From NCBI GenBank assembly GCA_965221125.1, contig CBDCRW010000004.1:480001-544000 (forward strand): a DNA stretch of 64,000 nt, written 5' to 3'. Below the pieces are notes generated by a model. The model did not search any database. It saw only the letters and a list, made by a program, of their open reading frames with translations, and was not told the origin of the DNA. This document shows positions 2,774 through 45,049 of the stretch, one piece after another. A program made the position numbers and the translations under genes. This stretch comes from Alphaproteobacteria bacterium. Lineage in GTDB: Bacteria > Pseudomonadota > Alphaproteobacteria > UBA828. Positions within the stretch are counted from its first letter, which is position 1; the number at the start of each line of letters is the position of its first letter.

Positions 2774-2790
2774 CACGCGTCTCCCCTGGT

Positions 2791-13155: not shown

Positions 13156-13163
13156 CGCCCGCC

Positions 13164-14093
13164 TCACAAGCCCGCCAGCCTGGGGTCGTAGGTGTCGCGC
13201 AGGAAGTCGCCGAAGAGGTTGATGGCGACGGCGGTGATCAGGATCGCGAGCCCCGGCCCCAGCGTCATCCACAGGCTCTCGAACATGTAGTTGCGCCCGT
13301 CCGAGATCATCACGCCCCAGGACGGCGTCGGCGGCTGGATGCCGAGGCCGAGGAAGCTCAGCGCCGCCTCGAAGATGATGACGAAGGCGATGTCGAGCGT
13401 CGCCATCACGATGATGGACGGCAGCACGTTGGGTACCACGTGGCGCAGGATGATGATGCTGTGGCGGACGCCAATGGAGCGCGCGGCCTGGATGAACTCC
13501 AGCTCGCGCAGCTTGAGCGTCTCGCCGCGCACGAGGCGCGCGTAGTTGACCCAGATCGCGACGGCGAGCGCGATCACCAGGCTGGTGAAGCCCGGTCCGA
13601 AGATCGCCATGAAGATGATGGCGAGCAGGATGAAGGGGAAGGAGAGCTGGAAGTCCGTGAGCCGCATGATGAAGCTGTCGACCAGCCCACCGAAGTAGCC
13701 GGCGATGGCGCCCAAGGCCGAGCCCACCACCAGCGCCAGCATCACCACGAAGGCGCCGACCGCCACGGACGTCTGCGTGCCCAGGATCACGCGGGAGAAG
13801 ATGTCGCGGCCGAGGTTGTCCGCGCCCAGGAAGTGCGGCCACTCGCCGCCCGCGAAGACCGGCGGCATGAAGCGGTTCTTGATGATCTGCTCGGTGGGGT
13901 CCGCCGGCAGCAGCAGGGGGGCGAAGATCGCGACGATGACGATGACCGCCATGCAGACGAAGCCGGTCATCCCCTTGGGGCTGGCCCGGAGCTCCTGGAA
14001 GAAGCGCCGGAGCGGCGGCACGTGATCGTCGAGCGGCGCGTCCGCGCGCGCCTCGGGCATGCCCTTTGCCTCGCCCGGCTCAAGCGCGGTCAT
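13164..14093 (-). CDS. peptide ABC transporter permease (DppC/OppC)
   Basis: [26 protein letters not shown]. Confidence 0.92.
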
Positions 14094-15075: not shown

Positions 15076-15129
15076 GGGCAGGGCCCGCCGCGGCCCCTCA
15101 GCGACCGCGGCGGGTCAACGAATCGTACC

Positions 15130-16789
15130 CTACTCTTCGAGCCATATCTCCTGGAGGTGGTGGAAGCCCACGACGTTGAGCGTGACTCCGTGCACCTCTT
15201 CTCTCATGGCTGCGACGTACTTCCCTTCGTAGAGGATGGCCGAGTAGGCCATGCCGACGTAGCGCTCCTGAACCTTCTGCCAGAGCGCCTTGCGCTCCGC
15301 AGCGTCGAATATGTAGCGCTGGTCGGAGAGCATCTGGTCGAGCTCGGCATCCTCCGTGAACGACCAGTTGAAGGGCGTGGCCGTGCCCAGCATGTTGAAC
15401 AGGATGTCCGGATCCGAATAGGTGTACCAGATTATGGCCATGTCCTGATCGCCCTTCTGCGCGAGCGGGATGTACTCGGCGACAGGGAAGGCCTGGATGG
15501 AGACATTGATGCCGATCTTCGCCAGGTCCTCCTGCACGACCTCCGCGATGCGGCGGAACATCTCGGACGCCACCGTGTAGAACAGGACATCGATGCCATC
15601 GCCGTGGCCCGCCTCCTCCACGAGCTGCCGCGCCTTCTCGGGATCGTGGGGGTAGCCGAGGTCAGCCGAGCCCTCGAAATACTGCGGGAAGGAGGTCGCC
15701 ACCGGGCTGTGCGCGGTCGCGGCCTGGCCGTCCATCACCAGCGCAATGATCTTCTCGCGGTCGATGGCGTAGTTGACCGCCTTTCGCAGCCGCTCGTCCG
15801 CGAACGCCTTCTTGTTGTTAAGGTTGATGAAGTGCACACCGGCCGAGAGCCGCGTGAAGGTCTTCAGCCCCGGCGTCTGTCCGAGTTGGCGCACCTTGTC
15901 GAGCGGCAGGGCCTCGTCGCCCGAAATCATGTCGATGTCGCCCGAGCGCAAGGCGGCGAGCCGCGTCGCCTCCTCGGGAATCACCACGTACTCGACGCTG
16001 TCGAGGTAGGCCTTGCCCTGATTGTTGTACCAGGGCGTCGCCCAGTCGTGCTCCTCGTTGCGCTCCAGGCGAATGCCCTGATCGGGCCGCCAGCTCACGA
16101 ACTTGAACGGGCCGGTGCCGACCGGATTGCGGCCGTAGAGATCGCCGTGCTTCTTGGCCGCCGTCGGGCTGATGGGCGCGCAATAGGAGTAGCTGAGACC
16201 CACCCATAGCGGCACGAAGGGCTCGGTGTAGTGGTAGGCGACGGTGAGATCGTCGATCACCTCCACCCGGTCGAGCGGCCCCAGCAGGAACGCATTGGGC
16301 GAGGCCGTCTCCGGCGCGACATGCCGGTCCGCCGTGAACTTCATCGCCTCGGCGTTGAGCGGCGTGCCGTCGTGGAAATTCAGGCCCGGCCGCAGCTTGA
16401 AGGTGACGGTGAGGTTGTCGTTGGAGAACGCCCAGCTCTCGGCAGCCCCCGGATAGACGTTGCCGCTCGCGTCCAGGTAGATCAGCGAGTCGTAGATCTG
16501 CCACATGATCTCGTGGCTCACGAGCAGGAACGTCTTGTGCGGGTCAAGAGTGTCCGAATCCTGCGCGCGGCCGATCCTCAGGTGGCCGCCCGCTTGCTGC
16601 GCCTGTGCCGCCCGCTTGCTGCGCCTGTGCCGCCCGCGTGCCGAACCCTGCAAGCGCGAGGCCGCCCGCTGCAGCGGCCGATTGCAGGAACCCGCGGCGG
16701 GAAAGCGCCCAGTTCCGCGCATAGTCGTAGGTCTGTTGCTCGAAGGATTTCGCAACGGTGGTATCGGATGGTGACCGCTTGCTTGCCAT
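15130..16789 (-). pseudogene. family 5 ABC substrate-binding protein, frameshifted by a 22-bp duplication
   Basis: The Tat signal (MASK...SRRGFLQ) and the mature domain (LRIGRAQDSDTLDP, GTGPFKF) are in different frames; removing one 22-bp unit leaves 1638 nt in one frame. Confidence 0.85.
16585..16637. repeat. 22-bp tandem duplication
   Basis: gccgcccgcttgctgcgcctgt twice (16585-16628) plus a 9-nt partial third copy. Confidence 0.95.
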
Positions 16790-16852
16790 CGTTTCCTCCC
16801 TATGGCGTGCGTTGAAGGGCCCTTTCTTGTTGTTGCGAACCATCTCGCTGCT

Positions 16853-16887
16853 TGTCGGGGGGGGGGGCCGCAGGCCGCCCCCCAACA
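16853..16887 (-). terminator. GC-rich intercistronic stem-loop
   Basis: Inverted G-run/C-run around ggccgcaggcc just after the upstream SBP stop; contains a G11 homopolymer. Confidence 0.4.
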
Positions 16888-16895
16888 CGCAGAAC

Positions 16896-18539
16896 TCAGA
16901 CGTCGAGCCAGACGTCCTGCAGGTGGTGGAAGCCCACGAGGTTGAGCTCCAGCCCCTGCACCTCCTCCTTCATCGCGGCGACGTAGGTGCCCTCATAGAG
17001 GTAGAGCCAGTAGGCGTCCTTCACCGCGACCTCCTGGATCTGGCGGATCTGCTCCGCGCGCTTCTCCGCGTCGAACTCGATGCGCTGGGCTTCGATCAGG
17101 ACATCCAGATCGGCGTTCTCCGAGAAGGTCCAGTTGAGCCCGGCCCCGGTCAGCATCATGGGGTAGATCAGGTCGGGGTCGCTGTAGGTGTAGTAGAAGA
17201 AACTCGTGTGGAACTTGCCCTGGCCGCCCAAGGCGAACCACTCGGCCACCGGGTAGGACTGGATCTCCATCGAGACGTTGATCTGCGAGAGGTCCTCCTG
17301 GATCACCTCCGCGACCCGCCGGAAGATCGGGCTCTCGATGTTGAGGTAGCTCATGGTGAAGCCGTCCGCGAGCCCGGCTTCGGCCATGAGCGCCTTGGCC
17401 TTCTCCAGGTCGTGGCGGAAGCCGTAGGTCTCGGTCTCCGGGTTGTATTGGGCGTAGGACGACGCCACCGGGCTGAAGGCGGGCTGGCCCTGGCCGTCGA
17501 GGACCAGCGCGATGATCTTGTCGCGGTTGACCGCGTAGTTGAGCGCCTGGCGCACGCGCACGTCGTCAAGCGGCGCCATCTTGTGGTTGAACATGGCGAA
17601 GAAGACGCCGACGGCGGGCCGGCTGTAAATCTTGTAGCCCTCCGTCGCCTCGATCTGGCGCAGCTTGTCCACCGGCACCGCCTCGGTGCCCGAGATGCAG
17701 TCCACGTCGCCGCTGAGCAGCGCCGCGAGGCGGGTCGCATCCTCCGGGATCACCACGTATTCGACCCGCTCGAGATAGGCCTTGCCCTCGTTGCTGTACC
17801 AGGGCGTGGCCCAGTTGTGCTCGTCGTTGCGCACGAGCTCGATGCCCTGGTCCGGGTCCCAGCGCACGAACTTGAAGGGCCCCGTGCCGCTGGGATTGCG
17901 GCCGAAGGCATCGCCTCGTTCCTCGACGGCCGCCTTGCTGATGGGCGCGCAGTAGGAATACCCGAGCCCCACCCAGAGCGGCACGAAGGGATCGGTGTAG
18001 TGATAGGCGATCGTCATGTCGTCGATCACCTCGGTGCCTTCGATGGGGCCCAGCATCCACGAGGTGGGGGACGCCGTGGTCTCGGCGCGGTGGCGCTCCA
18101 CGGTCCAGCGCACGACCTCGGCGTTGAAGGGCGAGCCGTCGTGGAAGTTGACGCCTTCGCGCAGCTTGAAGGTGACCGTCTTGCCCTCGTTGGAGAACTC
18201 CCAGCTGGTGGCGAGGCCCGGATAGACCGTGCCTGCCTCGTCCAGGTAAATCAGCGAATCGTAGATCTGCCATGCGATCTCGTGGGCGACGAGCAGGGTG
18301 GTCTTCTGCGGGTCGAGGGTGTCGGACTCCTGCCCGCGCGCGATGCGGAGCGTGCCCCCCGGCTTGGCGGCATTCGCGCTCGGAATGCTGAGGCCGGCGA
18401 ACGCTGCCGTGCCGCCCAGCGCCGCGCCGGCCTTGAGGAAATCGCGCCTGTTCATCTGCGCCCAGGCGCGCGCGTAGGCATATGTCTTCTCCTCGAAGGT
18501 CATCTCTTCGATGGGCTTCTTGTCGTGCGTGTCCGTCAT
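16896..18539 (-). CDS. family 5 ABC substrate-binding protein, Tat-exported
   Basis: NRRDFLK Tat motif; LREGVNFHDGSP; GTGPFKF; paralog of the downstream frameshifted gene. Confidence 0.92.
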   Translation of the reverse strand: MTDTHDKKPIEEMTFEEKTYAYARAWAQMNRRDFLKAGAALGGTAAFAGLSIPSANAAKPGGTLRIARGQESDTLDPQKTTLLVAHEIAWQIYDSLIYLDEAGTVYPGLATSWEFSNEGKTVTFKLREGVNFHDGSPFNAEVVRWTVERHRAETTASPTSWMLGPIEGTEVIDDMTIAYHYTDPFVPLWVGLGYSYCAPISKAAVEERGDAFGRNPSGTGPFKFVRWDPDQGIELVRNDEHNWATPWYSNEGKAYLERVEYVVIPEDATRLAALLSGDVDCISGTEAVPVDKLRQIEATEGYKIYSRPAVGVFFAMFNHKMAPLDDVRVRQALNYAVNRDKIIALVLDGQGQPAFSPVASSYAQYNPETETYGFRHDLEKAKALMAEAGLADGFTMSYLNIESPIFRRVAEVIQEDLSQINVSMEIQSYPVAEWFALGGQGKFHTSFFYYTYSDPDLIYPMMLTGAGLNWTFSENADLDVLIEAQRIEFDAEKRAEQIRQIQEVAVKDAYWLYLYEGTYVAAMKEEVQGLELNLVGFHHLQDVWLDV

Positions 18540-18653
18540 CTCCCCGTCTCCCTATCTTGCTTCGTGTTTGTTGGTTGGAAGTAGCGTAACCCGGATTACT
18601 CGCCACGGTCACGGCCGAAGCCGGCGATCCGGCCCTTTGTGATCGGCGGGCGG

Positions 18654-19763
18654 TCACACCTCCACCCGCACGGCGCCGGCCGCGAGGGGCGCGAGGCGTG
18701 CGGGATCGAAGGGCGCGAGGTCGACGGTGCTGGCCTCTCCGTCGGCGATCAGCTCCGCGACCGCCTCGCCCGTGGCCGGGCCGTTCAGCATCCCCCACAC
18801 CGAGTGGGCCGTCGCCACGTAGGCGCCCGCAGCGCCTGGAACGGCGCCGATGAGCGGCAGCCCGTCCTCGACCACAGGGCGGTAGCAGGCCTGCTCGGCC
18901 AACACCTCGGCGCTGCCCAGCGCCGGCGCGAACTGCGCCGTCATGGCGCGGAGCCTGTCGCAGCCGCCCTCGTCCGGCACTACCGCGGCGGGGTCCACCG
19001 GCAGCGGCTGCTCGCTGGAAAGGCCGCAGACGTAGGTGGTGCCATCGGGCCGGGGCATCACCTCGGGCGAGGCGAGGATGCCGCCCTCGGCCTCCAGCTC
19101 CACGAAGAGCGCGTTGGGCACGGGCTCCGGCGCATAGCGGAAGACCAGGCTGTGGCCCTTCAGGCCGTAAATCGCCGGGAGCGGCAGCCAGTTGCTCGCG
19201 AGGACCGACCAGGGGCCCATGGCGATGACGACCGCATCGCCCGCCATCTCGTGCCCGTCCACCACGACGCCCCGCACGGCGCCATCGGCCTCCCGCGCCA
19301 CGCCGCTGACGGTGCCGATGGTCACCCGCGCGCCTTCGCTGAGCGCCGCCCGCATCATGGCGCCGGTGAACGCGGCGGGGTCGAGCTGGGCCGTGGTCTC
19401 GGCGGTGCCGAGCCTGGCGTGGACCGCCGCGCTGCCCGCGAGCCAGTCCGGCGCCGCGAGCTTGCGATAGAAGCCCACGTCGCGGCGGGCGCTGCTCACG
19501 ACGCCGAGGGTGTCGAGCCTGCGATACCCCCACTCGTCGTCGATGCGCTCGGCAAGCTCCGCGTGGAGCGCGAAGCTGCGCCGCGCCAGCGCCTCGACCG
19601 GCGAGCCGTCGCACCAGTCGAGCGCGAGGAACCCGCCCGACTTGCCGGAGGCCGCATTGGCGATGCCGGTGCGCTCGATCACCGTGCACGCGATGCCGCG
19701 CAGGCTGAGGAAGTAGGCGATCGACGTGCCGATCACGCCGCCACCGCAGATCAGCACCCGCAT
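18654..19763 (-). CDS. FAD-dependent oxidoreductase, D-amino acid oxidase family
   Basis: GGGVIG, AASGKSGGFLA, ACYRP..DGLPLIG, HSVWGMLNGPATG. Confidence 0.85.
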   Translation of the reverse strand: MRVLICGGGVIGTSIAYFLSLRGIACTVIERTGIANAASGKSGGFLALDWCDGSPVEALARRSFALHAELAERIDDEWGYRRLDTLGVVSSARRDVGFYRKLAAPDWLAGSAAVHARLGTAETTAQLDPAAFTGAMMRAALSEGARVTIGTVSGVAREADGAVRGVVVDGHEMAGDAVVIAMGPWSVLASNWLPLPAIYGLKGHSLVFRYAPEPVPNALFVELEAEGGILASPEVMPRPDGTTYVCGLSSEQPLPVDPAAVVPDEGGCDRLRAMTAQFAPALGSAEVLAEQACYRPVVEDGLPLIGAVPGAAGAYVATAHSVWGMLNGPATGEAVAELIADGEASTVDLAPFDPARLAPLAAGAVRVEV

Positions 19764-20385: not shown

Positions 20386-21396
20386 ATGAGCGAACGCCCG
20401 CAGATCGACCCGCCCTATCTGCTCTTCCTCGGCGATGCGCGCGATGCGCTCGCCGCCAAGACCGCGCGCGGCGTGTTCGTCTTCCGCCCGGAGTGGTGCC
20501 TCGGCCAGATCAGGCTGCCGGGCTGCAAACCCCGCCTCGACCTGCCCGAGATGACGGTGGAGGAGGCGGCGGCCAAGGGTGCCAAGAGCCTCATCGTCGG
20601 AGTCGCCAACGCGGGCGGCGTGGTCAGCGAGAGCTGGATCGAGACCCTCGTGGCGGCGCTGGAAGCGGGCCTCGACGTCGCCAGTGGGCTGCACGTGCGC
20701 CTGAGCGACCTGCCGGCGGTGCGGGATGCCGCCGAGGCGAACGGCCGGCACCTCTTCGACGTGCGCCACCCGTCGCAGGAGTTCAAGGTGGGCTCCGGCG
20801 TGAAGAGGGCCGGCAAGCGCCTGCTTACGGTGGGCACCGACGCCTCGGTCGGCAAGATGTACGCCACGCTCGCGCTCGAAGCCGAGTGGCGCCGGCGCGG
20901 CGTCCCCTGCACCTTCCGCGCGACCGGGCAAACCGGCATCTTCGTCGCGGGCCGCGGGGTCTCGGTCGACGCGGTGGTGGCGGACTTCATCTCCGGCGCC
21001 ACCGAGTGGCTTACGCCTGAGAACGACCCGGAGCATTGGGACCTGGTCGAGGGGCAGGGCTCGCTCCACCATCCCTCCTACGCGGGCGTGACCCTCGGCC
21101 TGATCCACGGCGCCCAGCCGGACGCCATCGTGGTCTGCCACGAGCCGACGCGGACCAACATGCGCGGCCTGCCGCACTGGCCGCTGCCGGAGCTCGGCGA
21201 GAGCATCGAGGCCAACCTGCAGGCGGCGCGGCTCACCAATCCGGACGTCGTCTGCGCCGGCATCTGCGTCAACACCGAGGCGCTCGGCGACGCGGAGGCC
21301 GCGGCGCTGCTGGACGAGCTCGGCGCGGCCCACGGGCTCCCCTGCGTCGATCCCATCCGCACCGGCACGGGCTCCATCGCCGACCGCGTGCTGTAG
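20386..21396 (+). CDS. dgcN: DUF1611 family D-glutamate N-acetyltransferase DgcN
   Basis: PYLLFLGD, AAKTA.G, GTDASVGKM, ATGQTG, EGQGSLHHP; directly upstream of dgcA. Confidence 0.88.
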   Translation: MSERPQIDPPYLLFLGDARDALAAKTARGVFVFRPEWCLGQIRLPGCKPRLDLPEMTVEEAAAKGAKSLIVGVANAGGVVSESWIETLVAALEAGLDVASGLHVRLSDLPAVRDAAEANGRHLFDVRHPSQEFKVGSGVKRAGKRLLTVGTDASVGKMYATLALEAEWRRRGVPCTFRATGQTGIFVAGRGVSVDAVVADFISGATEWLTPENDPEHWDLVEGQGSLHHPSYAGVTLGLIHGAQPDAIVVCHEPTRTNMRGLPHWPLPELGESIEANLQAARLTNPDVVCAGICVNTEALGDAEAAALLDELGAAHGLPCVDPIRTGTGSIADRVL

Positions 21397-21408
21397 AGGC
21401 CGGGCCCC

Positions 21409-22389
21409 GTGAGGCGGCTCACCGTTCGCCTCGAAACCTGGCCGCTCGCGAGCGCCTTCCGCATCTCGCGCGGCGCCAAGACCGAGGCGCACGTCGTCGT
21501 CGCCGAGGTCGCCGACGGCGCCTGCGCCGGCCGGGGCGAGGCGGTTCCCTATCCCCGCTACGACGAGACGCCGGAGGGCACGCGGGCGGAGATCGAGAGC
21601 GTGCGGGACGCCGTGGAGGGCGGACTCGGCCGCGAGGCCCTGCTGGAGGCGCTGCCGCCGGGCGCCGCCCGCAACGCGCTCGACTGCGCTCTCTGGGATC
21701 TCGAAGCGAAGCAGGCGGGCCAGCCGGCCTGGGCGCTGGCGGGGCTCGCAGCGCCGAAGCCCTGCGTCACCGCCGTGACGCTCAGCCTCGATACGCCGGA
21801 GAACATGGGTGCAGCCGCGGCCCGGCATGCGCACCTGCCCCTGCTCAAGCTCAAGGTCACCGGCGAGGGCGACGCGGAGCGCATCCGTGCCGTGCGCGAG
21901 AACGCGCCCCGCGCCCGGCTGATCGTGGATGCGAACGAGGGCTGGTCGCTACCCATGCTGGACGAGCTGCTGCCGGCCCTTGCCGCGCTCGGGGTGGAGA
22001 TGGTGGAGCAGCCGCTGCCTGAGGCGGAGGACGCGGCGCTCGAAGGCCGCCAACCGGCCATCCCGCTTTGCGCCGACGAGAGCTGCCACACCCGTGCCGA
22101 CCTGCCCCGGCTCGCCGGCCGCTATCCCGTGGTCAACATCAAGCTGGACAAGACCGGAGGGCTGACGGAGGCGCTGGCGCTGGCCAGGGAGGCGCAGGCC
22201 ATGGGCTTTCGCATCATGGTCGGCAGCATGGTCGGCACCTCGCTCGCCATGGCGCCGGCGGCGCTGCTCGCGGGCTTTGCCGAGTACGTCGATCTCGACG
22301 GCCCCCTGCTGCTGGCCCGCGACCGCGCGCCGGGGCTCGTCTACGACGGCGCGGTGATGTCACCGCCCGATCCCGCGCTTTGGGGATAG
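21409..22389 (+). CDS. dgcA: N-acetyl-D-glutamate racemase DgcA (dipeptide epimerase family)
   Basis: FRISRGAK, LKLK, DANEGW, EQP, ADES, NIKLDKTGG, DLDG. Confidence 0.88.
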   Translation: MRRLTVRLETWPLASAFRISRGAKTEAHVVVAEVADGACAGRGEAVPYPRYDETPEGTRAEIESVRDAVEGGLGREALLEALPPGAARNALDCALWDLEAKQAGQPAWALAGLAAPKPCVTAVTLSLDTPENMGAAAARHAHLPLLKLKVTGEGDAERIRAVRENAPRARLIVDANEGWSLPMLDELLPALAALGVEMVEQPLPEAEDAALEGRQPAIPLCADESCHTRADLPRLAGRYPVVNIKLDKTGGLTEALALAREAQAMGFRIMVGSMVGTSLAMAPAALLAGFAEYVDLDGPLLLARDRAPGLVYDGAVMSPPDPALWG

Positions 22390-22432: not shown

Positions 22433-22478
22433 ATAGATAGTGTTTGCGCGAGTTGGCTGTGCCCGAAGGGACGACCGC

Positions 22479-22706
22479 ATGCCGCGAGTCAGCGCCAAGC
22501 GACAGATCACGCTTCCCATCGATCAGTGCAGGGAAGTCGGGATCGGGCCGGGGGACGAGTACCGGAGCTTCGTCGCCGACGGCCGCATCACCATCGTGCG
22601 GAAGACCTCCGGCGCGGCCCGAGGGTTCCTGCGCCATGTCGCCGGCGATCCTGCCGTCAGCGACGATGAGTCCCTGCAGGACGCGCTGGACGAGCCGACG
22701 TCTTGA
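22479..22706 (+). CDS. AbrB/MazE-fold antitoxin
   Basis: RVSAKRQITLP...VGIGPGD; stop overlaps the PIN toxin start. Confidence 0.8.
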   Translation: MPRVSAKRQITLPIDQCREVGIGPGDEYRSFVADGRITIVRKTSGAARGFLRHVAGDPAVSDDESLQDALDEPTS

Positions 22707-23137
22707 TCGCCGTCGACACCAGTGTCCTGCTCCGGTATCTGCTGCACGACGATGAGGCCCAGGCGGCACGGGCGGATGCTGTTTTCGCTGCGGGCGAGAC
22801 CGTCCTGATCACGGACGTCGTGCTGGCGGAGGCCGTGTGGACCCTCGCCGGGCGCAAGTACCGGCTGGGCAGGGCCGGGCTGGCGGCCGTCCTGGAACGG
22901 CTCTTCAGCGAGCCGAACGTCCGTTTCGAGGACGACCAGGTGGTCTGGCGCGCCCTGCAGGCGTACCGACGCGCCGCCCCGGCGGGCGAGGCCGGATCAG
23001 CGAAGGGTGCCGGCTTCGCCGATGCGTTGATCGTGTTCAAGGCTCGGCGCGCCGCGGCGGACTCCGACCAGGCGTTGAGGGGCGTCTGCACCTTCGACGC
23101 GGCCATGGGGCGGCTGCCGCACGCCGTATCGCTCTGA
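22703..23137 (+). CDS. PIN-domain toxin, VapC family
   Basis: IAVDTSVLLRYL, LAEAVW, GFADALI, TFD acidic residues. Confidence 0.85.
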   Translation: MIAVDTSVLLRYLLHDDEAQAARADAVFAAGETVLITDVVLAEAVWTLAGRKYRLGRAGLAAVLERLFSEPNVRFEDDQVVWRALQAYRRAAPAGEAGSAKGAGFADALIVFKARRAAADSDQALRGVCTFDAAMGRLPHAVSL

Positions 23138-23256: not shown

Positions 23257-23910
23257 ATGGGCCGCCTGTTGGAGCTCGGGGAGCGGGTGGAGCTTGTCTC
23301 CATGGACCCGCACTTCCACGACATCAGCATCGCCCTCTACCGCTGCAGTGGGGAGGGCGGCGCGTCGTGTTACCTCGTCCACAGCTACAGCGGGAAGGAG
23401 GGCGCCGCCGAACGGCTGGCCTTCGTGATGCGGGCGATGGCGGTCATGGGCGGCATGGGGCCCGCGCCGGGGCAACCGGGTCGCCTGGCCTTCGCCTGCG
23501 GCGCCGAGCACCGGGCGGCGGTCAAGCGGCTCTTCCTCGAAGCCTGCAAGAAGGCACCGGGTTCGGACGTCGAAGCGCTGCCCATGAGCATCTACGACAA
23601 GAAGAACGACTTCACCATCAGCGCGACCAATATCGGCGGGGGCGCCTACCGGCTCGCAGCCGACGTCGGCGCGGCGGACGACAAGGTGGCGCGGCGCGTG
23701 GACGGCGTGACGCGCGGGCTGATCAAGCTCGCCGAGATGGAGCCGGGCGAGGCGCCGGGCGAGGCCCGCTTTGCCTGCGGCACGGCCCATGACGAGCTCG
23801 TGGGCCTCCTGCTCGGCCGGGCGCTCAACGTCCGCGCCGCCATGCGCGAGGCGGAGGCCGCGGCGGCGCGGGGCGTCCTCGCCGCGCCGAGCGCGCAACA
23901 GCAGACCTGA
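23257..23910 (+). CDS. hypothetical protein with duplicated FACGxxH motif
   Basis: gagggg RBS; 18 nt from the methyltransferase gene; FACGAEH and FACGTAH repeats. Confidence 0.75.
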   Translation: MGRLLELGERVELVSMDPHFHDISIALYRCSGEGGASCYLVHSYSGKEGAAERLAFVMRAMAVMGGMGPAPGQPGRLAFACGAEHRAAVKRLFLEACKKAPGSDVEALPMSIYDKKNDFTISATNIGGGAYRLAADVGAADDKVARRVDGVTRGLIKLAEMEPGEAPGEARFACGTAHDELVGLLLGRALNVRAAMREAEAAAARGVLAAPSAQQQT

Positions 23911-23928
23911 GGATCGGGAGCGAGAGCG

Positions 23929-24972
23929 ATGACGGCAGTACCCTCGATGACCAGCCGCGAGCGGGTGCTCGCAGCGCTGAACCGCAAGCCGGTGGATCGC
24001 ACGCCCGTGTGCAACCCCACCTCGGTCGCCACGGTGGAGCTGATGGACCTGGTGGACGCGAACTTTCCGTTCGCGAACCGCGACCCGGAGCTGATGGCGC
24101 GGCTCGCCGCCACCAGCTACACCGAATTGGGCTTCGACAGCATCATGCCGGTCTTCTCGATCATCCAGGAGTCGTCGGCGCTCGGCTGCAAGATGCAATG
24201 GGAGCAGAAGGACAATTGGCCGACCGTGCGCATGCGCGAGCCGATCTGGGAGGACGTGGACGACATCCGCATCCCCAACGACTTTCTCCTGCACCCGGAC
24301 ATGGCTTGCGTGATCGAGGGGATCCGCATGCTGCGCCGCGAGTTCGGCAACGAGGTCGCAATCATCGGCAAGACCATGGGGCCGTGGACCCTCGGCTATC
24401 ACTGCTTCGGCGTCGAGCCCTTCCTGCTGATGTCCCTCGACGATCCGGGCAAGACCAAGCTCGCGCTCGACCGCATGAAGGAGGCGACGATCATCTTCGG
24501 GCTGGCACAGATCGAGGCGGGCGCGGACGCGCTCACGCTCCCCGATCACGCCACCGGCGACCTGGTGAGCGCGGACTACTACAGGCGCTATCTCAAGGAT
24601 CTCCACATCGAGTTCGTGGAGCGCCTGCCGGTGCCGATCATCCTCCACATCTGCGGGCGCACCGTGGACCGCATGGGCTATATCGCCGAGACCGGGATCG
24701 CCGCCTTCCACTTCGATTCCAAGAACGCACCGGCCGAGTCCATGCAGATGATGGACGATCGCGTCTCGCTGGTCGGCAACATCAACAATCCCGAGACGCT
24801 GTTCGCCAAGGGGCCGGAGGACGTGCGCAAGGAGGTGTATGCCAACCTCGACGCCGGCGTGCAGGGAGTGGGGCCGGAATGCGCCATCCCGCTCCAGACT
24901 TCGATCGAGAACCTGCGCGAGATACCGCTGGCGGTGCGCGACTGGCACGCCGAGCACGGCCGCTCTCACTGA
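23929..24972 (+). CDS. MtaA/CmuA family corrinoid methyltransferase (UroD fold, Zn-binding)
   Basis: MTSRERVLAAL...VDRTPV, GPWTL, AQIEAGAD, LHICG (HxC), LVGNI, GPECAIP. Confidence 0.85.
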   Translation: MTAVPSMTSRERVLAALNRKPVDRTPVCNPTSVATVELMDLVDANFPFANRDPELMARLAATSYTELGFDSIMPVFSIIQESSALGCKMQWEQKDNWPTVRMREPIWEDVDDIRIPNDFLLHPDMACVIEGIRMLRREFGNEVAIIGKTMGPWTLGYHCFGVEPFLLMSLDDPGKTKLALDRMKEATIIFGLAQIEAGADALTLPDHATGDLVSADYYRRYLKDLHIEFVERLPVPIILHICGRTVDRMGYIAETGIAAFHFDSKNAPAESMQMMDDRVSLVGNINNPETLFAKGPEDVRKEVYANLDAGVQGVGPECAIPLQTSIENLREIPLAVRDWHAEHGRSH

Positions 24973-25019
24973 TCGCCTTGGCCTCCTGACGCCCCGCCGA
25001 ATCCACCACTGAGTCCCCG

Positions 25020-25769
25020 ATGGTCGAGCTTGCCGACATCGCCAACGCGGTGATCCGCGACGAGATCGAGGAGTTTCTCGAGCGCCCCGACGAGATCGAG
25101 CGCAACGTCGCGCTCTTCGCCCGCATGCGGCCCGAGATGCAGGACATCGCTGCCGCCCTGATCGAAGGCGACAACCACACGGTGGACGCGCTCACGACCA
25201 AGGCGCTGGAGGAAGGCACCGAGGCGCTGGAGATCATGGACGACGGGCTCATCGCCGGCATGGGGATCGTCGGCATCAAGTTCCGCGAGAATTTCATCTT
25301 CGTGCCCGAGGTGCTGGCGTGTGCGCGGGCGATGAAGGCGGGCATGGCCCACATCGAGCCGATTCTCTCCGCCTCGGGTGTGGAGCCCATCGGCACCGTC
25401 ATCATGGGCACGGTCAAGGGCGACCTCCACGATATCGGCAAGAACCTCTGCATCATGATGCTTTCGGGCGCCGGCTTCGACGTGGTCGACCTCGGCGTCG
25501 ACACCTCCGAGGACGAGTTCATCGCGGCGCTGGAGGAGCACGAGGCACCGATCATGGGCATGTCCGCGTTGCTCACCACGACGATGCCGAACATGGGCAA
25601 GACCATCGAGGCGCTGATCGACGCCGACCTGCGCGACGACGTGATGGTGATGGTGGGCGGTGCGCCGGTGACGCAAGAGTTCGCCGACGACATGGGCGCC
25701 GACGGCTACGGCAAGGACGCGCTCTCCTGCGTGGCGCTCGCCAAGAAGCTGGTGGAAGAGCGCGGTTAG
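25020..25769 (+). CDS. corrinoid-binding protein (MtaC/MttC-like)
   Basis: Cap domain FVPEVL, GTVKGDLHDIGKNL (DxHxxG), SALLTTT, GGAP, GADGY. Confidence 0.92.
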   Translation: MVELADIANAVIRDEIEEFLERPDEIERNVALFARMRPEMQDIAAALIEGDNHTVDALTTKALEEGTEALEIMDDGLIAGMGIVGIKFRENFIFVPEVLACARAMKAGMAHIEPILSASGVEPIGTVIMGTVKGDLHDIGKNLCIMMLSGAGFDVVDLGVDTSEDEFIAALEEHEAPIMGMSALLTTTMPNMGKTIEALIDADLRDDVMVMVGGAPVTQEFADDMGADGYGKDALSCVALAKKLVEERG

Positions 25770-25778
25770 GCGAAGCCG

Positions 25779-27773
25779 TTGCCGAAGATCAGCCAGCAGG
25801 ACTACCAGAAGCGGCTCGACCGGCTCACCGAGATCTTTTCGGACATCGTGAGCCACGCCGACGTACAGGCCACGCAACGCTGCCCCTACCGCGATGCGCG
25901 CGACCGCTGCACCGCCGCCTTCTCCTGCGGCAACCAGATCCCTGCCGTGGAAAAGGACGAGCCCGCCACCTGCGGCCACGACGGCACCTTCGACTACAGC
26001 CTGGCGTGGGAGAGCGATCCCGCCACCCGCGATCGCGCGCGCAAGCAGCTCGACCGCGTCAAGCAGGATGCCGCGGCGCGGCGCGAGGGCGGCGCGCTGC
26101 CGGCAGGGCCCGGCACGGTCTCCCACGACGGCAAGACGGAGCCGATCGCCGTCGGCATGACGCTCTTCGACTGCGCCGACGAGCTTGCCGTCGAAGTGCC
26201 GACCTCGTGCCTCCGCAACGGTCGCTGCCACGAGTGCGTGGTCGAGGTGAGCGCGGGCGACGACGCGCTCTGCGCGCGCACGGAGGCCGAGGGCTTCCTG
26301 CGGCCTCCCTACCGCCTCGCCTGCCAGGCGCTGGTCGAGCGCGACGACATCGACGTGGCCTTCGCGCCGCTCCGCCGCCGCCCGCGCATCCTGGTGCGCG
26401 CCCGTGCAGATGCGGCGGCCCTGCCCGAAACCCTCGACCCCCTCGTCACCCGGCGGGGCGACGATGTGCTCTACGACGGCGCGGTGGTGGACCGCTACCG
26501 CGGGCGCATGCTGGGGCTCGCGGTCGACCTCGGCACCACGACGGTGGTGCTCGACTTCGTCGATCTGGAGACGGGAAAGAGCGTGCACAGCGCCGCCTTC
26601 GAGAACCCGCAGGCCTTCGGCGGCAGCGACGTGATGCACCGCATCTCCTACGACCGCGACGACAAGGCCGGCGAGCTGCAGAAGGCCGCAGCGTCGGCCA
26701 TCAGCCGCGTCGTGGTGGACGGTTGCGCCCGGCTCGGGCTCGGCCGTGAGACGATCTACGAGATCGTGGTGGCGGCCAATCCCACCATGCGCGACATCCT
26801 GTTCAAGCTCGACGTGCAGGGCATCGGCCAGAAGCCCTACAAGTCGTCGGTCGAGCACGCCTTCCTCGCGGGCGAGCGGGCGAACACGGCGCTCTGCGCG
26901 CTGGCCCGGCGCCTCGGCCTGCGCGCGAACCGGGAGGCGCGGGTCTATGGCTTGCCGCTGATCGCGAGCCACGTGGGCGGCGATGCCGCCGCCGCCCTGG
27001 TGGCACTGGAACAGGGGTTCGCGGACGCGGAGACCGTGATGCTCGTGGACATGGGCACCAACACCGAGGTCGTGCTGAAGCACCGGGGACGGATGCTATC
27101 TGCCTCCTGCCCGGCGGGGCCTGCGTTCGAGGGCGGGCTGGTGCGCTACGGCATGCCGGCCTGCGACGGCGCCATCGAGACGGTGCGGCTCGGGGCGGAC
27201 GGCGCGGCCGCCTGGGAGACCATCGGCGGTGGGGAGCCCACGGGCCTCTGCGGCTCCGGCCTGATCGACCTGGTGGCGGAGCTCCGGCGAGGCGACGTGC
27301 TCACCGCCAAGGGCGTCTTCACCGCCGACCGCAAGCAGAAGGAGACGACCGTGGTGCCCGAGCACGGCATCACCTTCTCCAGGGAGGACGCCAGCAACCT
27401 GGGCCAGGCCAAGGCCGCCAACTACTGCGGGCAATACATCGTCATGCGCGCGCTCGGCGTCGATCCGGCCGCCATCGAGCGGCTCTATCTCGCGGGCGGC
27501 TTTGCCAACTACGTGAACGTGCAGAACGCCCAGTCCATCGGCCTGCTGGCGCCGGTGCCGGAGAAGCGCGTGGTCAAGGCCGGCAACGCGGCGGCGCGGG
27601 GCGCGAGGGCGATTCTGCTCTCGGGCAGCCGGCGCCGTGCGCTGGAACGCGAAGTCCAGGCCATCGAGCATATCGAGCTCGAGACCACGCCGGATTTCTT
27701 CGACCTCTTCGTGGACGGCTGCCAGTTCAAGCCGATGCCCGCGCATCTCGTACCGGAAGGGACCGCCGCATGA
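25779..27773 (+). CDS. ASKHA-type reductive activator of corrinoid proteins (RACo-like) with 2Fe-2S domain
   Basis: CLRNGRCHEC...RLACQ ferredoxin motif; DLGTTT, GSDVMHRI, DMGTNTE, GPAFEG, CGSGLID, LAGGF; TTG start. Confidence 0.88.
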   Translation: MPKISQQDYQKRLDRLTEIFSDIVSHADVQATQRCPYRDARDRCTAAFSCGNQIPAVEKDEPATCGHDGTFDYSLAWESDPATRDRARKQLDRVKQDAAARREGGALPAGPGTVSHDGKTEPIAVGMTLFDCADELAVEVPTSCLRNGRCHECVVEVSAGDDALCARTEAEGFLRPPYRLACQALVERDDIDVAFAPLRRRPRILVRARADAAALPETLDPLVTRRGDDVLYDGAVVDRYRGRMLGLAVDLGTTTVVLDFVDLETGKSVHSAAFENPQAFGGSDVMHRISYDRDDKAGELQKAAASAISRVVVDGCARLGLGRETIYEIVVAANPTMRDILFKLDVQGIGQKPYKSSVEHAFLAGERANTALCALARRLGLRANREARVYGLPLIASHVGGDAAAALVALEQGFADAETVMLVDMGTNTEVVLKHRGRMLSASCPAGPAFEGGLVRYGMPACDGAIETVRLGADGAAAWETIGGGEPTGLCGSGLIDLVAELRRGDVLTAKGVFTADRKQKETTVVPEHGITFSREDASNLGQAKAANYCGQYIVMRALGVDPAAIERLYLAGGFANYVNVQNAQSIGLLAPVPEKRVVKAGNAAARGARAILLSGSRRRALEREVQAIEHIELETTPDFFDLFVDGCQFKPMPAHLVPEGTAA

Positions 27774-28801
27774 CCGCCCCGCCAACGCTCATCGTCATCG
27801 GCGAGAACATCCACTGCACCCGCGTGGCACTCCGCAAGGGCAAGCGCATCGCCGAGCGCGACGGGGCCGAGGTCATCCTCTACGAGAGCGCGGATGGCGA
27901 GGCGCGTGCCCTGCCGGTGACGGCGGAAGCCAAGCGGACCAAGGACTACGAGGAAGGCCGCGTCAAGCACGTGCACGTCGCCATCGAGACGGCGATGGAG
28001 ACGGCGGCGGGCGATCCCGCCGAGGGAATGCGCTACATCGAGGCGCTCATCCGCCATCAGGAGCGCGCGGGCGCGGCCTTCCTCGACCTCAACGTCGACG
28101 AGATGTCACCCAAGCTCAGCGTGCAGACCGGCGCCATGGCCTGGCTCGCGGCGACGGTGCAGGACCTGACCGAACTTCCGCTCTCCATCGATTCGTCCAG
28201 CGTCGACGTGATCCGCGCAGGGCTGGAAGCGATCGCGCCGGCCAAGATGCGCCCGATGCTCAACTCCGCCTCGCTGGAGCGGCAGGACGCGCTCGACCTC
28301 GCACGGGAGCACGACTGCCGCGTGGTGGTGACCGCCGCCGGCGAGCGCGGCATGCCGAACGGCGCCGACGAGCGGGTGGCGAATGCGTCCCGCATGGTGG
28401 AAGCAGCGCTCGCCAGGGGCTTCGCGCTGGGCGATCTCTACGTCGACCCGCTGGTCTTCCCTATCTCGGTCGATTCCACCTTCGGCCATCACTGCTTCGA
28501 TGCGATCCGCGCCTTACGGGAGCGTTTCGGCAGCGAGATCCACATCACAGGTGGCATGAGCAACGTCTCCTTCGGGCTGCCGGCGCGGAAGCTTCTGAAT
28601 GAGATGTTCGTGCTGCTGGCGGTGGACGCCGGCGCCGACGGCGGCATCATGGACCCGGTGGCAAGCCCGCCGGAGGCGATCTTCGCCATCGACCGCGCGG
28701 ACCCCAACTACAAGCTCGCCGAGGACGTGCTGCTGGGCCGCGACGAGCACTGCATGGCCTACATCCGCGCCTGGCGGAAGAGCAGGCGCAAGCCCAAGTG
28801 A
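27770..28801 (+). CDS. pterin-binding methyltetrahydrofolate:corrinoid methyltransferase (AcsE/MeTr-like)
   Basis: IGENI, LDLNVD, SIDSS, MLNS, DPLV, GMSNVSFGLP.R; ATGA overlap with the activator gene. Confidence 0.85.
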   Translation: MTAPPTLIVIGENIHCTRVALRKGKRIAERDGAEVILYESADGEARALPVTAEAKRTKDYEEGRVKHVHVAIETAMETAAGDPAEGMRYIEALIRHQERAGAAFLDLNVDEMSPKLSVQTGAMAWLAATVQDLTELPLSIDSSSVDVIRAGLEAIAPAKMRPMLNSASLERQDALDLAREHDCRVVVTAAGERGMPNGADERVANASRMVEAALARGFALGDLYVDPLVFPISVDSTFGHHCFDAIRALRERFGSEIHITGGMSNVSFGLPARKLLNEMFVLLAVDAGADGGIMDPVASPPEAIFAIDRADPNYKLAEDVLLGRDEHCMAYIRAWRKSRRKPK

Positions 28802-44871: not shown

Positions 44872-45049
44872 GTGCGAGGGGTTCCTCCTGTTGGCGCAGC
44901 ACCGTGTTGGCGCCCTCTTTTACCCGAAAAGCCCGGAAGGTTCACAGGGGCAAAATGGCAGGGCATATCGCGGTTACACAAGGCGCGCGCGGCGTGGCAC
45001 TATCCGGGTGCGCGACGCTGCGAGCGCCGGAGGGTGGGAGCCCAGCGCC

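What the first reader, a model, noticed from the sequence alone, without database searches (positions are those of the whole stretch)
23257..28801. Complete methanogen/acetogen-style corrinoid methyl-transfer cluster of unknown substrate in an apparently aerobic alphaproteobacterium
Seen: five tightly spaced co-oriented genes: unknown protein, MtaA/CmuA Zn methyltransferase (HxC plus distal Cys), corrinoid protein, ASKHA reductive activator, and pterin-binding methyltransferase. Known: this MT1-corrinoid-MT2-activator layout moves methyl groups between a substrate and tetrahydrofolate. MtaA-family Zn enzymes act on thiols (CoM, methylthiols) or, as CmuA, on methyl halides. It differs from cmu (fused CmuA with MtrH-like CmuB) and there is no MttB/MtgB amine methyltransferase here. 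Inference: a possibly undescribed pathway that demethylates a methylthio or halomethane compound into the folate pool, or runs in reverse to methylate a thiol. This is the best candidate for a new system in the window.
Basis: partly seen in the sequence, partly recalled or inferred. Interest (0 to 1): 0.8.

Follow-up and report, generated by a model that had tools for sequence, protein, structure and literature searches.

The report
Corrinoid methyl-transfer cluster with orphan partner
A real five-gene vitamin-B12 methyl-transfer operon whose shared core is already known from aerobic marine bacteria, but whose substrate-specific part, a very highly conserved MtaA-like zinc enzyme always paired with an unnamed protein, appears undescribed and may handle methylated sulfur compounds.

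Summary
Five co-oriented, tightly packed genes sit at exactly 23257-28801. They encode an orphan 217-aa protein (g1), an MtaA/CmuA-family zinc methyltransferase, a His-on corrinoid protein, a RACo/RamA-type activase and a pterin-binding methyl-THF methyltransferase.

The last three genes are distant homologues (33-45% identity) of a hub already described in aerobes: the split methionine synthase of Phaeobacter and MtgC/MtgD/RamA of Ruegeria and Sinorhizobium. So a "methanogen-style system in an aerobe" is not new in itself.

What looks new is the g1 + MtaA-like pair, which stands where MtgB stands in that hub. The pair is adjacent in 79 of 80 related loci from at least six phyla. The methyltransferase is about 80% identical across phyla although synonymous sites are saturated. 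It forms its own clade, apart from the MtaA and MtbA anchors, and is 25% identical to CmuA. g1 has no Pfam, NCBIfam or PDB relative. It is an internal duplication with invariant Cys-x3-His in each half.

My best reading (confidence about 0.4) is a donor module that demethylates an S-methyl compound (MeSH, DMS or MMPA type) onto the corrinoid. From there the methyl goes to THF or homocysteine. Direction and substrate are inferred.

The parts
23257..23910 (+). g1: orphan 217-aa soluble protein, an internal tandem duplication, the constant partner of the methyltransferase
   Evidence: No Pfam or NCBIfam hit. 0 convincing Pfam hits for 45 of 45 family members (best E 0.03). Best PDB profile hit E 0.3. 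1827 relatives at E<=1e-3; among the 120 listed, every name shown is 'hypothetical protein' and none has a Pfam domain. N and C halves align with hhalign probability 96.7%, E 3.9e-10. C81, H85, C174 and H178 are invariant in 45 of 45, and the C-terminal RG-x-L-x-x-PS tail is conserved. Lies upstream of the methyltransferase on the same strand in 79 of 80 loci. No transmembrane segment; pI 6.5.
23929..24972 (+). MtaA/CmuA-family zinc corrinoid methyltransferase with a His-Cys-Cys sphere
   Evidence: URO-D E 2.5e-64. TIGR01463 245.7 bits against a cut-off of 235.4; below the MtaA cut-off (220.7 of 400) and the MtbA cut-off (186.7 of 600). PDB 4ay7 MtaA E 1.7e-52. H240, C242 and C318 invariant. 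Forms its own clade, SH-aLRT 100. 25% identity to CmuA.
25020..25769 (+). Corrinoid (B12) protein with cap and Rossmann domain; His-on DxHxxG motif (GDLHDIGKN)
   Evidence: PF02607 + PF02310. Best NCBIfam hit is MtgC_2, 203.9 bits, below its cut-off of 370. Motif read. PDB 1y80 E 1.1e-60. 45% identity to the S. meliloti cobalamin-binding protein that sits next to an MttB-family gene.
25779..27773 (+). RACo/RamA-type ATP-dependent reductive activase. It has a 2Fe-2S ferredoxin domain and an extra Cys-rich N-terminal domain of about 110 aa.
   Evidence: Fer2 + Raco_middle + RACo_C_ter. PDB 3zyy E 3.2e-64 over residues 243-659. 33% identity to the S. meliloti ASKHA protein. The N-terminal domain has no Pfam hit and is a separate ORF of about 100 aa in 14 related loci. 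The start codon is TTG.
27770..28801 (+). Pterin-binding methyl-THF:corrinoid methyltransferase (MT2, MtgD/AcsE-like)
   Evidence: Pterin_bind E 3.5e-20. PRK07535 203.4 bits, below its cut-off of 259. PDB 4o0q (D. hafniense MT II) E 6.1e-31 and AcsE entries. 35% identity to the S. meliloti methyltetrahydrofolate cobalamin methyltransferase. Its start overlaps the activase stop by 4 nt.

Best explanation
This is a modular corrinoid (B12) methyl-transfer operon built on the hub already known from aerobic bacteria.

What the domains show:
- A His-on corrinoid protein cycles between Co(I) and CH3-Co(III).
- A pterin-binding methyltransferase exchanges the methyl group with tetrahydrofolate.
- A RamA/RACo-type activase uses ATP and a 2Fe-2S domain to re-reduce Co(II), which matters in an oxygen-exposed cell.

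What is inferred:
- The substrate-specific arm is the g1 + MtaA-like pair, working together. Co-function is inferred from adjacency; physical binding was not tested.
- The zinc site (His240, Cys242, Cys318) holds a sulfur atom. The enzyme removes the methyl group from a small, membrane-permeant S-methyl compound such as methanethiol, dimethylsulfide or methylmercaptopropionate. The methyl goes onto Co(I), and the thiolate leaves on zinc.
- The methyl group then goes to THF, for oxidation through an MTHFR encoded in related loci. Alternatively it goes to homocysteine, through a separate homocysteine methyltransferase encoded in related loci.
- g1 is an accessory subunit carrying a Cys2His2 metal site formed between its two repeats.
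For: Architecture: the domain assignments come, and the His-on motif.

Hub homology: the S. meliloti locus holds bmt (PF02574), an MttB-family gene, a cobalamin-binding protein, DUF1638, a 'virulence factor', MTHFR_C, MTHFR, a methyl-THF cobalamin methyltransferase and an ASKHA protein. The window proteins are 45%, 35% and 33% identical to the corrinoid protein, methyl-THF methyltransferase and ASKHA protein. The same accessory genes recur beside the g1 + MT pair in the 80 related loci: MTHFR-DUF5981 in 15, PF13769 in 10 and PF02574 in 7. One further locus has a core-MetE-like PF01717 gene plus MTHFR (L039).

Donor role: in Ruegeria the homologous hub takes methyl from MtgB, and the metF2 next to mtgD is proposed to oxidise methyl-THF (PMC12478193, Results read). 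Here g1 + MT occupies the MtgB position. A separate homocysteine arm exists in 8 loci, so the MtaA-like enzyme is not needed for that arm. A divergent GntR/FCD regulator is present in 18 of 80 loci.

Sulfur: the His-Cys-Cys sphere is invariant in 24 of 24. According to PMC10418091 (Results read) this sphere marks S- or Se-methyltransferases of the UroD superfamily, whereas O-demethylases replace the Cys residues.

Permeant substrate: no transporter family recurs among neighbours in the 80 loci.

Partnership: g1 is adjacent on the same strand in 79 of 80 loci; the 80th locus is cut 90 nt upstream.

Functional importance: the MT has a median 80% and the corrinoid protein a median 80% amino-acid identity across phyla. 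By contrast, third-codon-position identity within identical residues falls to 0.32-0.42 against low-GC hosts. The conservation is therefore selection, not recent transfer.
Against:
- The nearest characterised relatives, MtaA and MtbA, methylate a thiol (CoM). They do not demethylate a donor.
- Recalled thermodynamics: methyl transfer from methyl-pterin to a thiol is exergonic by roughly 30 kJ/mol. Thioether-to-THF transfer therefore runs uphill and must be pulled. Thioether-to-homocysteine transfer is roughly neutral.
- CmuA also aligns with H-x-C and the distal Cys, so the triad does not exclude methyl halides.
- No gene of known methylated-sulfur catabolism recurs in the neighbourhoods.
- GntR is present in only 18 of 80 loci.
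- The 80 loci are the best of 481 confirmed and are dominated by Poribacteria (46 of 80 by record title). In 40 of those 46 only the g1 + MT pair is in the locus.
- No riboswitch or other regulatory clue was found.
Confidence: 0.4

Rival explanations
1. Same machinery run in the biosynthetic direction. CH2-THF is reduced to CH3-THF, and the methyl passes through the pterin methyltransferase and the corrinoid protein. The MtaA-like enzyme, with g1, then methylates a thiol other than homocysteine, for example sulfide to methanethiol, methanethiol to DMS, 3-mercaptopropionate, or a CoM-like cofactor.
For: The closest solved and curated relatives are methylcobamide:CoM methyltransferases. Recalled thermodynamics favours thiol methylation. 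MTHFR lies beside the pterin methyltransferase in 15 of 80 loci. The extreme conservation of the MT and corrinoid protein suggests a housekeeping role.
Against: No candidate acceptor pathway is encoded nearby. By composition the homologous Mtg hub uses its special methyltransferase as the donor arm, and its MTHFR is proposed to run oxidatively (PMC12478193). The need for a methylated thiol across six phyla of heterotrophs is unexplained.
Confidence: 0.2
2. A variant split methionine synthase. The MtaA-like zinc enzyme replaces the PF02574 homocysteine-binding module, and g1 replaces DUF1638. The cluster then simply makes methionine from methyl-THF.
For: Three of the five parts of the P. inhibens split MetH are present (PMC5764234 passages). 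The window cluster has no PF02574 and no DUF1638. The high conservation fits an essential enzyme. Related loci sit in a methionine and C1 context.
Against: In 7 of 80 loci a PF02574 protein, and in one more a core-MetE-like protein, is encoded beside the same cluster. That would make the MtaA-like enzyme redundant there. g1 shows no similarity to DUF1638 (E 18). No SAM or B12 riboswitch was found in the window or in 8 loci.
Confidence: 0.1
3. A methyl-halide (CH3Cl, CH3Br, CH3I) dehalogenating methyltransferase. It would be a non-cmu route of the kind still unknown in marine Leisingera.
For: The protein falls in the MtaA/CmuA family. CmuA keeps the same H-x-C and distal Cys in the alignment. 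The absence of a recurrent transporter fits a permeant substrate. Marine methyl-halide degraders without cmu exist (PMC4197683, passages).
Against: Only 25% identity to CmuA, and a separate clade. The characterised anaerobic haloalkane enzyme CdmB needs no zinc (PMC13222342, passages). No purU/folD set of the cmu type recurs in the neighbourhoods.
Confidence: 0.1
4. A methyl-selenium system that demethylates methylselenol or dimethylselenide to recover selenium, as proposed for type 1 mlp clusters.
For: A His-Cys-Cys sphere also suits Se, and an Mlp2 was active with selenide (PMC10418091, Results read).
Against: Type 1 mlp clusters are reported only from obligate anaerobes. They carry two or more Mlps and no folate methyltransferase (same paper). 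No sel genes appear in the window or in the neighbours scanned.
Confidence: 0.07
5. An O-demethylase of the acetogen type (MT I, CP, MT II, AE) acting on methoxylated aromatics or methylated sugars.
For: The four-component layout is the same. The pterin methyltransferase is closest in the PDB to the D. hafniense O-demethylase MT II. Sugar and inositol-type genes lie upstream in 4 Latescibacterota loci.
Against: Both Cys ligands are invariant, whereas O-demethylases replace them (PMC10418091). The methyltransferase is far nearer to MtaA (E 1.7e-52) than to anything else in the PDB.
Confidence: 0.04

Closest known systems
MtgB/MtgC/MtgD/MtgE + RamA hub of aerobic bacteria (Ruegeria pomeroyi, S. 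meliloti; Mausz et al. 2025) and the three-part split MetH of Phaeobacter inhibens (Price et al. 2018)
   Same: A separate His-on corrinoid protein, a pterin-binding methyltransferase and a Fer2 + ASKHA activase. In related loci the same MTHFR, MTHFR_C, PF13769 and PF02574 genes appear. The host is aerobic.
   Different: The donor module is not an MttB-family protein (PF06253) but an MtaA-like UroD-fold zinc enzyme plus the orphan g1. There is no DUF1638. Identities to the S. meliloti proteins are only 33-45%. The activase carries an extra Cys-rich N-terminal domain.
Methanogen methylcobamide:CoM methyltransferases MtaA and MtbA (and, from recall, MtsA and MtpA)
   Same: UroD fold and His-x-Cys plus distal Cys zinc ligands. 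M. mazei MtaA is the best PDB hit, E 1.7e-52. Meets the TIGR01463 cut-off.
   Different: Scores below the MtaA and MtbA equivalog cut-offs. Lies in a 33-row clade separate from the 55-row clade that holds the four MtaA and one MtbA anchors. Bacterial, linked to folate, and paired with g1. MtsA and MtpA could not be placed, because no named sequences were available.
CmuA/CmuB chloromethane dehalogenase of Methylorubrum extorquens CM4
   Same: An aerobic alphaproteobacterium, a corrinoid route to methyl-THF, a methyltransferase domain of the same broad family, and the same Cys/His positions.
   Different: CmuA is one fused 617-aa protein. Its corrinoid domain has Gln where the window protein has His. 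Identity is 25% to the window methyltransferase and 32% to the window corrinoid protein.
Type 1 mlp gene clusters (Kountz and Balskus preprint)
   Same: [quoted passage not shown] An S- or Se-methyl role is proposed.
   Different: Those clusters have two or three Mlps, no folate methyltransferase, and occur only in obligate anaerobes (PMC10418091, Results read). This cluster has one MtaA-like gene, a folate methyltransferase and g1.
Acetogen and Desulfitobacterium O-demethylases (MT I, CP, MT II, AE) and Cdm of A. dehalogenans
   Same: Four-component logic. The MT II-like and RACo-like proteins are the nearest solved structures for genes 5 and 4.
   Different: Their MT I enzymes lack the Cys-Cys zinc sphere or lack zinc altogether (PMC10418091; PMC13222342, passages). 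They come from anaerobes.

Membership tests
MtaA/CmuA family methyltransferase (TIGR01463) | Score at or above the curated cut-off of the family model | tested here: met
   245.7 bits against a cut-off of 235.4. URO-D Pfam E 2.5e-64, matched end to end.
MtaA/CmuA family methyltransferase (TIGR01463) | Zinc ligands His-x-Cys plus a distal Cys | tested here: met
   H240, C242 and C318 align with 4ay7 and are invariant in 24 of 24 sequences. Metal content itself is not testable here.
MtaA (NF040654) or MtbA (NF041608) equivalogs: methylcobamide:CoM methyltransferase | Score at or above the equivalog cut-off, and clade membership | tested here: not met
   220.7 of 400 and 186.7 of 600 bits. Lies in a different starred clade from the 4 MtaA anchors and 1 MtbA anchor.
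CmuA chloromethane methyltransferase | Two-domain fusion of methyltransferase and corrinoid domains, and close sequence kinship | tested here: not met
   The genes are separate. Identity is 25% over the methyltransferase domain and 32% over the corrinoid domain.
Aerobic modular corrinoid hub (split MetH / MtgCDE + RamA) | Separate PF02607 + PF02310 corrinoid protein, PF00809 pterin methyltransferase, and Fer2 + ASKHA (DUF4445) activase | tested here: met
   Homology to the S. meliloti locus proteins at 45%, 35% and 33% identity.
Aerobic modular corrinoid hub (split MetH / MtgCDE + RamA) | PF02574 homocysteine module (MtgE) and DUF1638 | tested here: not met
   Neither is among the 59 window ORFs scanned. 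PF02574 lies beside the cluster in 7 of 80 related loci. The rest of the genome could not be searched.
Aerobic modular corrinoid hub (split MetH / MtgCDE + RamA) | MttB-family (PF06253) donor methyltransferase MtgB | tested here: not met
   No PF06253 hit in the window ORFs or in the neighbour ORFs scanned.
Type 1 mlp gene cluster | At least an Mlp2 and an Mlp3 together, no folate methyltransferase, an anaerobic host | tested here: not met
   One MtaA-like gene only, and a Pterin_bind gene is present. The window carries succinate dehydrogenase, cytochrome c and flavocytochrome c genes. Clade assignment to Mlp1-3 was not tested, because no named Mlp sequences were available.
Corrinoid O-demethylase (MT I, CP, MT II, AE) | A UroD-family MT I in which the zinc Cys ligands are replaced or absent | tested here: not met
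   Both Cys residues are invariant. The criterion is taken from PMC10418091.
g1: any known protein family | A significant match to a curated profile or a solved structure | tested here: not met
   Pfam and NCBIfam: none. PDB profile search: best E 0.3. Atlas: no usable hit.

The most novel reading that the evidence does not exclude
The g1 + MtaA-like pair is the long-sought cobalamin-dependent methyltransferase by which aerobic bacteria demethylate dimethylsulfide and/or methanethiol. Such an enzyme was proposed in 1993 and was still called 'as yet unidentified' in 2019 (PMC6548844). In this reading g1 is a new Cys2His2 metal subunit. The pair would feed methyl groups from methylated sulfur directly into folate and methionine in sponge-associated and pelagic bacteria of at least six phyla.
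Probability: 0.25. Interest if true: 0.85.

Novelty: new variant of a known kind. Interest (0 to 1): 0.7.

Why it matters
If the reading holds, it adds a second kind of substrate module to the B12-dependent methyl-transfer hub of aerobic bacteria. That module is a UroD-fold zinc enzyme rather than an MttB-family enzyme, and it comes with an obligatory subunit from a protein family nobody has named.

The family is large. The genome scan confirmed 481 stretches, and the protein searches returned thousands of hits. It is among the most conserved genes in these loci. By record titles it is concentrated in Poribacteria, Latescibacterota and other marine lineages.

It would also give a concrete, testable candidate for aerobic, cobalamin-dependent turnover of methylated sulfur, or alternatively of methyl halides. 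Both questions are open and bear on marine sulfur and halogen budgets. Finally, it would widen the known B12 demand of marine symbionts.

Tried and rejected
No fold search was therefore possible.
- Complex prediction of g1 with the methyltransferase was unavailable. Binding was not tested.
- Atlas search: the window protein is not held, the machine was busy, and a stored homologue gave no usable hit.
- Plasmid collection: no DNA match to the cluster, no g1 match, and only HemE-like hits below 28% identity for the methyltransferase.
- Riboswitch search: nothing at or near the gathering score in the window cluster, and 0 matches in 8 related loci.
- Promoter and terminator scan: 0 sites.
- g1 against DUF5981-MTHFR, PF13769, the small Cys-rich ORF, PhyH, the methyltransferase, the corrinoid protein, RACo, the pterin methyltransferase, the homocysteine methyltransferase and GntR by hhalign: all probabilities are 1.6% or lower. 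g1 against S. meliloti DUF1638: E 18.
- Longer fused forms of g1: 3 singletons only. One is an MTHFR with a partial g1-like tail lacking the Cys/His residues, and one is a g1 half run into a URO-D reading. I read these as probable gene-calling or frameshift products and as weak evidence at best.
- P0262, a fused MT + corrinoid representative, was considered as a CmuA stand-in and rejected. It is only 23.5% identical to CmuA.
- The downstream 4HBT thioesterase was considered as part of the cluster and rejected. It is conserved only in the closest relatives L001-L004.
- The careful IQ-TREE search did not finish in the time allowed. The tree cited is the quick one, with SH-aLRT support only.

Full report
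OBSERVATION

The ORF list shows five + strand ORFs at 23257-23910, 23929-24972, 25020-25769, 25779-27773 and 27770-28801. These are exactly the finding's limits. The spacers are 18, 47 and 9 nt, followed by a 4-nt overlap.

Pfam and NCBIfam give the following:
- Gene 1 (g1): no hit.
- Gene 2: URO-D (E 2.5e-64). TIGR01463 'MtaA/CmuA family' scores 245.7 bits against a cut-off of 235.4.
- Gene 3: B12-binding_2 + B12-binding.
- Gene 4: Fer2 + Raco_middle + RACo_C_ter.
- Gene 5: Pterin_bind.

The nearest solved structures are:
- M. mazei MtaA 4ay7 for gene 2 (E 1.7e-52).
- 1y80 for gene 3 (1.1e-60).
- RACo 3zyy for gene 4 (3.2e-64).
- The D. hafniense MT II 4o0q and AcsE for gene 5 (6.1e-31).

H240-I-C242 and C318 align with MtaA and are invariant in 24 of 24 family members. 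The corrinoid protein carries the His-on motif GDLHDIGKN. Eight overlapping ORFs in other frames gave 0 Pfam hits. The five genes have GC3 of 0.91-0.94 in a window of about 69% G+C.

SURROUNDINGS

Upstream lie a peptide ABC transporter, a DAO oxidase, a DUF1611 + MR_MLE pair and a VapB/PIN pair. Downstream lie a 4HBT thioesterase and a D-Ala-D-Ala carboxypeptidase.

Among the 59 window ORFs scanned (5 + 16 + 38) there is no MttB-family gene, PF02574, MetH, MetE or DUF1638. Succinate dehydrogenase, cytochrome c, a flavocytochrome c sulfide dehydrogenase and a CoxL-type molybdoenzyme fit an aerobic lifestyle but do not prove it.

The closest loci are titled 'Alphaproteobacteria bacterium' MAGs. 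L001-L004 (methyltransferase 93-97% identical) share the flanking genes; L005-L006 (90%) do not.

RELATIVES OF THE METHYLTRANSFERASE

The word-indexed search found 4749 proteins at E<=1e-3 among 7807 candidates. All 120 listed are 78-94% identical and carry only generic names.

A hand count of the record titles gives:
- Poribacteria: 46
- Alphaproteobacteria-type: 15
- Latescibacterota: 8
- Acidobacteriota-type: 5
- Lentisphaeria: 3
- Gemmatimonadota: 2
- 'bacterium': 1

All 80 are MAGs or single-cell genomes. This sample is the top of the ranking and is biased.

SYNTENY

- g1 lies upstream of the methyltransferase on the same strand in 79 of 80 loci. The 80th locus, L050, has only 90 nt upstream. 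The median gap is 40 nt. In 8 Poribacteria loci a ruvC gene lies between the two.
- A corrinoid protein follows in 39 of 80 loci. That is 33 of the 34 non-Poribacteria loci (the 34th ends at the methyltransferase), but only 6 of the 46 Poribacteria loci.
- The activase is present in 34 loci and the pterin methyltransferase in 26.
- The same contiguous five-gene order as in the window occurs in 14 of 80 loci: 13 alphaproteobacterial and one Acidobacteria MAG.
- Other recurrent neighbours are a divergent GntR/FCD regulator (18 loci), a fused MTHFR-DUF5981 (15), PF13769 'virulence factor' (10), a PF02574 homocysteine S-methyltransferase (7) and PhyH dioxygenases.
- One locus (L039) has a core-MetE-like PF01717 gene and an MTHFR just upstream.
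- No transporter family recurs.

CONSERVATION

Outside the six closest loci, median identity to the window proteins is 80% for the methyltransferase, 80% for the corrinoid protein, 58% for the activase, 56% for the pterin methyltransferase and 47% for g1.

Among seven loci from four phylum-level groups, the methyltransferase (median pairwise 83%) and the corrinoid protein (79%) are more conserved than the homocysteine methyltransferase (62%), MTHFR (67%) or the pterin methyltransferase (60%).

Third codon positions within identical residues are only 0.32-0.42 identical against hosts of 47-51% G+C. The high protein identity therefore reflects purifying selection, not recent transfer.

g1

g1 has no Pfam or NCBIfam hit. 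Pfam gave no convincing hit for any of 45 members. The PDB profile search gave no hit better than E 0.3. The Atlas gave no usable hit, and the plasmid collection gave no match.

The profile search found 1827 relatives. Among the 120 listed, every name shown is 'hypothetical protein' and none has a Pfam domain.

The two halves of g1 are homologous (hhalign probability 96.7%, E 3.9e-10). Each half carries an invariant F-x-C-x3-H (C81/H85 and C174/H178). The C terminus ends in a conserved RG-x-L-x-x-PS-x-Q. The protein is soluble.

g1 is unrelated to the other cluster families and to DUF1638. A Cys2His2 metal site between the repeats is my inference.

PLACING THE METHYLTRANSFERASE

Against 1.84 billion representative proteins there were 2290 hits at E<=1e-3. 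The nearest full-length protein outside the family is 51% identical, and the next are 42-47%.

An NCBIfam scan of 80 full-length representatives supplied the anchors: four proteins above the MtaA cut-off and one above the MtbA cut-off.

In a quick IQ-TREE of 88 rows, the window protein and seven family members form a clade with SH-aLRT 100 and a stem of 0.58. That clade lies inside a 33-row clade (support 99), separate from the 55-row clade that holds all five anchors. The careful search did not finish, and the rows are unnamed because the listing of cluster members was off.

CmuA, fetched from pCMU01, is 25% identical to the window methyltransferase and 32% identical to the window corrinoid protein.

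THE KNOWN HUB

Price et al. 2018 (PMC5764234, passages read) showed a methionine synthase in P. inhibens split into PF02574, PF00809 and PF02607 + PF02310 proteins, with a Fer2 + DUF4445 RamA-like protein and a DUF1638 protein.

Mausz et al. 2025 (PMC12478193; abstract, Results and Discussion read) showed in R. pomeroyi that the corrinoid protein MtgC and the pterin protein MtgD serve two roles. They support methionine synthesis (with MtgE) and glycine betaine demethylation (with the MttB-family MtgB). A metF2 next to mtgD is proposed to oxidise methyl-THF.

The annotated S. meliloti locus contains all of these genes plus a 'virulence factor' and MTHFR_C. Its proteins are 45%, 35% and 33% identical to window genes 3, 5 and 4.

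Genes 3-5 are therefore a distant member of a described aerobic hub. The related loci share its accessory set.

MECHANISM

Shown by homology: a Co(I)/CH3-Co(III) carrier, a folate-side methyltransferase, an ATP-driven reductive activase, and a zinc methyltransferase of the thiol-handling type.

Inferred: g1 + MT is the substrate-specific arm in the place of MtgB. Kountz and Balskus (PMC10418091, Results read) state that His-Cys-Cys marks S- or Se-methyltransferases in this superfamily, and that O-demethylases replace the Cys residues.

I favour the donor direction for four reasons:
- A separate homocysteine arm is encoded beside the cluster in 8 loci.
- The MTHFR/PF13769/pterin-methyltransferase module matches the one proposed to run oxidatively in Ruegeria.
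- A GntR regulator is frequent.
- No transporter recurs, which fits a small permeant substrate.

I therefore propose that a small permeant S-methyl compound (MeSH, DMS or MMPA type) donates its methyl group to the corrinoid protein, and that the methyl then goes to THF or homocysteine.

Against this reading:
- The characterised relatives methylate a thiol.
- Recalled thermodynamics makes thioether-to-folate transfer uphill.
- CmuA keeps the same ligands.
- No sulfur-catabolic gene recurs in the neighbourhoods.

My confidence is 0.4. The rivals are listed separately in the report.

NOVELTY

Six searches of the paper library found no description of this pair or of g1. The nearest work is the mlp preprint, which covers anaerobes with several Mlps and no folate methyltransferase.

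Kröber and Schäfer 2019 (PMC6548844, passages) still call the cobalamin-dependent DMS methyltransferase of aerobes unidentified. Nadalig et al. 2014 (PMC4197683, passages) report an unknown, non-cmu chloromethane pathway in a marine alphaproteobacterium. Either question could be tested with this gene pair.

The library lacks most subscription journals, and I saw no figures or supplements. A published description cannot be excluded.

LIMITS

There is no structure or complex model, no names for the sister clade, and no whole-genome check for metH or metE. The locus sample is biased to Poribacteria. Substrate and direction rest on context only.

Noticed in passing
window 25779-26110 (N terminus of the activase gene); L014:4179-4550, L007:5035-5376 and 12 other loci: The activase begins with a Cys-rich domain of about 110 aa (C-x8-C-x5-C, then C-x-H-D-G) that has no Pfam hit. 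In 14 related loci it is a separate small ORF between the corrinoid protein and the activase. In L007 it is present although the ASKHA part is missing. The small hypothetical ORF at the same position in S. meliloti is not similar.
   Followed up: partly
window 22440-23137: A VapB-like ORF plus a PIN-domain (VapC-type) toxin-antitoxin pair sits directly upstream of g1. It is present in L001 and L004 but absent from the otherwise syntenic L002 and L003, so it looks like a variable insertion.
   Followed up: partly
L016, L018, L019, L021, L022, L036, L061, L070 (between g1 and the methyltransferase): In 8 Poribacteria loci a ruvC gene (PF02075) lies between g1 and the methyltransferase. In 40 of 46 Poribacteria loci no corrinoid protein, activase or pterin methyltransferase lies within the stretch held. 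The pair can therefore be separated from its hub.
   Followed up: partly
protein P0396 (517 aa, found): A single record has an MTHFR domain followed by a g1-like C-terminal part (41% identity over g1 residues 70-215) in which both Cys/His motifs are lost. It may be a real fusion linking g1 to the folate side, or a gene-calling artefact.
   Followed up: partly
window 36467-38254 (-): One 595-aa ORF combines a Druantia DruA-like N terminus with DDE_Tnp_1_assoc and DDE_Tnp_1 transposase domains.
   Followed up: no
window 44630-50198: There is a second B12-dependent enzyme set: methylmalonyl-CoA mutase (its Pfam match starts at residue 171, so the true start is probably later) and MeaB, with an ABC exporter gene between them.
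   Followed up: no
window 1478-3585 (-) and 62934-63977 (-): A flavocytochrome c sulfide dehydrogenase pair (FCSD flavoprotein plus dihaem cytochrome c) and an ATP sulfurylase. These are sulfur-oxidation and sulfur-activation genes in the same window, but 20-35 kb from the cluster and not linked to it in other loci.
   Followed up: no
window 20386-22389 with 11183-19763: A DUF1611 + MR_MLE (dipeptide-epimerase-like) pair lies next to two SBP_bac_5 binding proteins, Opp-type permeases, an ATPase and a DAO oxidase. The block is conserved upstream of the cluster only in the closest relatives L001-L004.
   Followed up: no
L053, L072, L075, L080 (upstream of the GntR gene): In four Latescibacterota loci, a block lies beside the cluster holding xylose-isomerase-like TIM barrel, ceramidase-like, GFO/IDH/MocA and HAD genes, plus MR_MLE, PhyH and aldo-keto reductase genes between the activase and MTHFR. 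This could hint at a sugar- or inositol-derived substrate in that phylum.
   Followed up: partly
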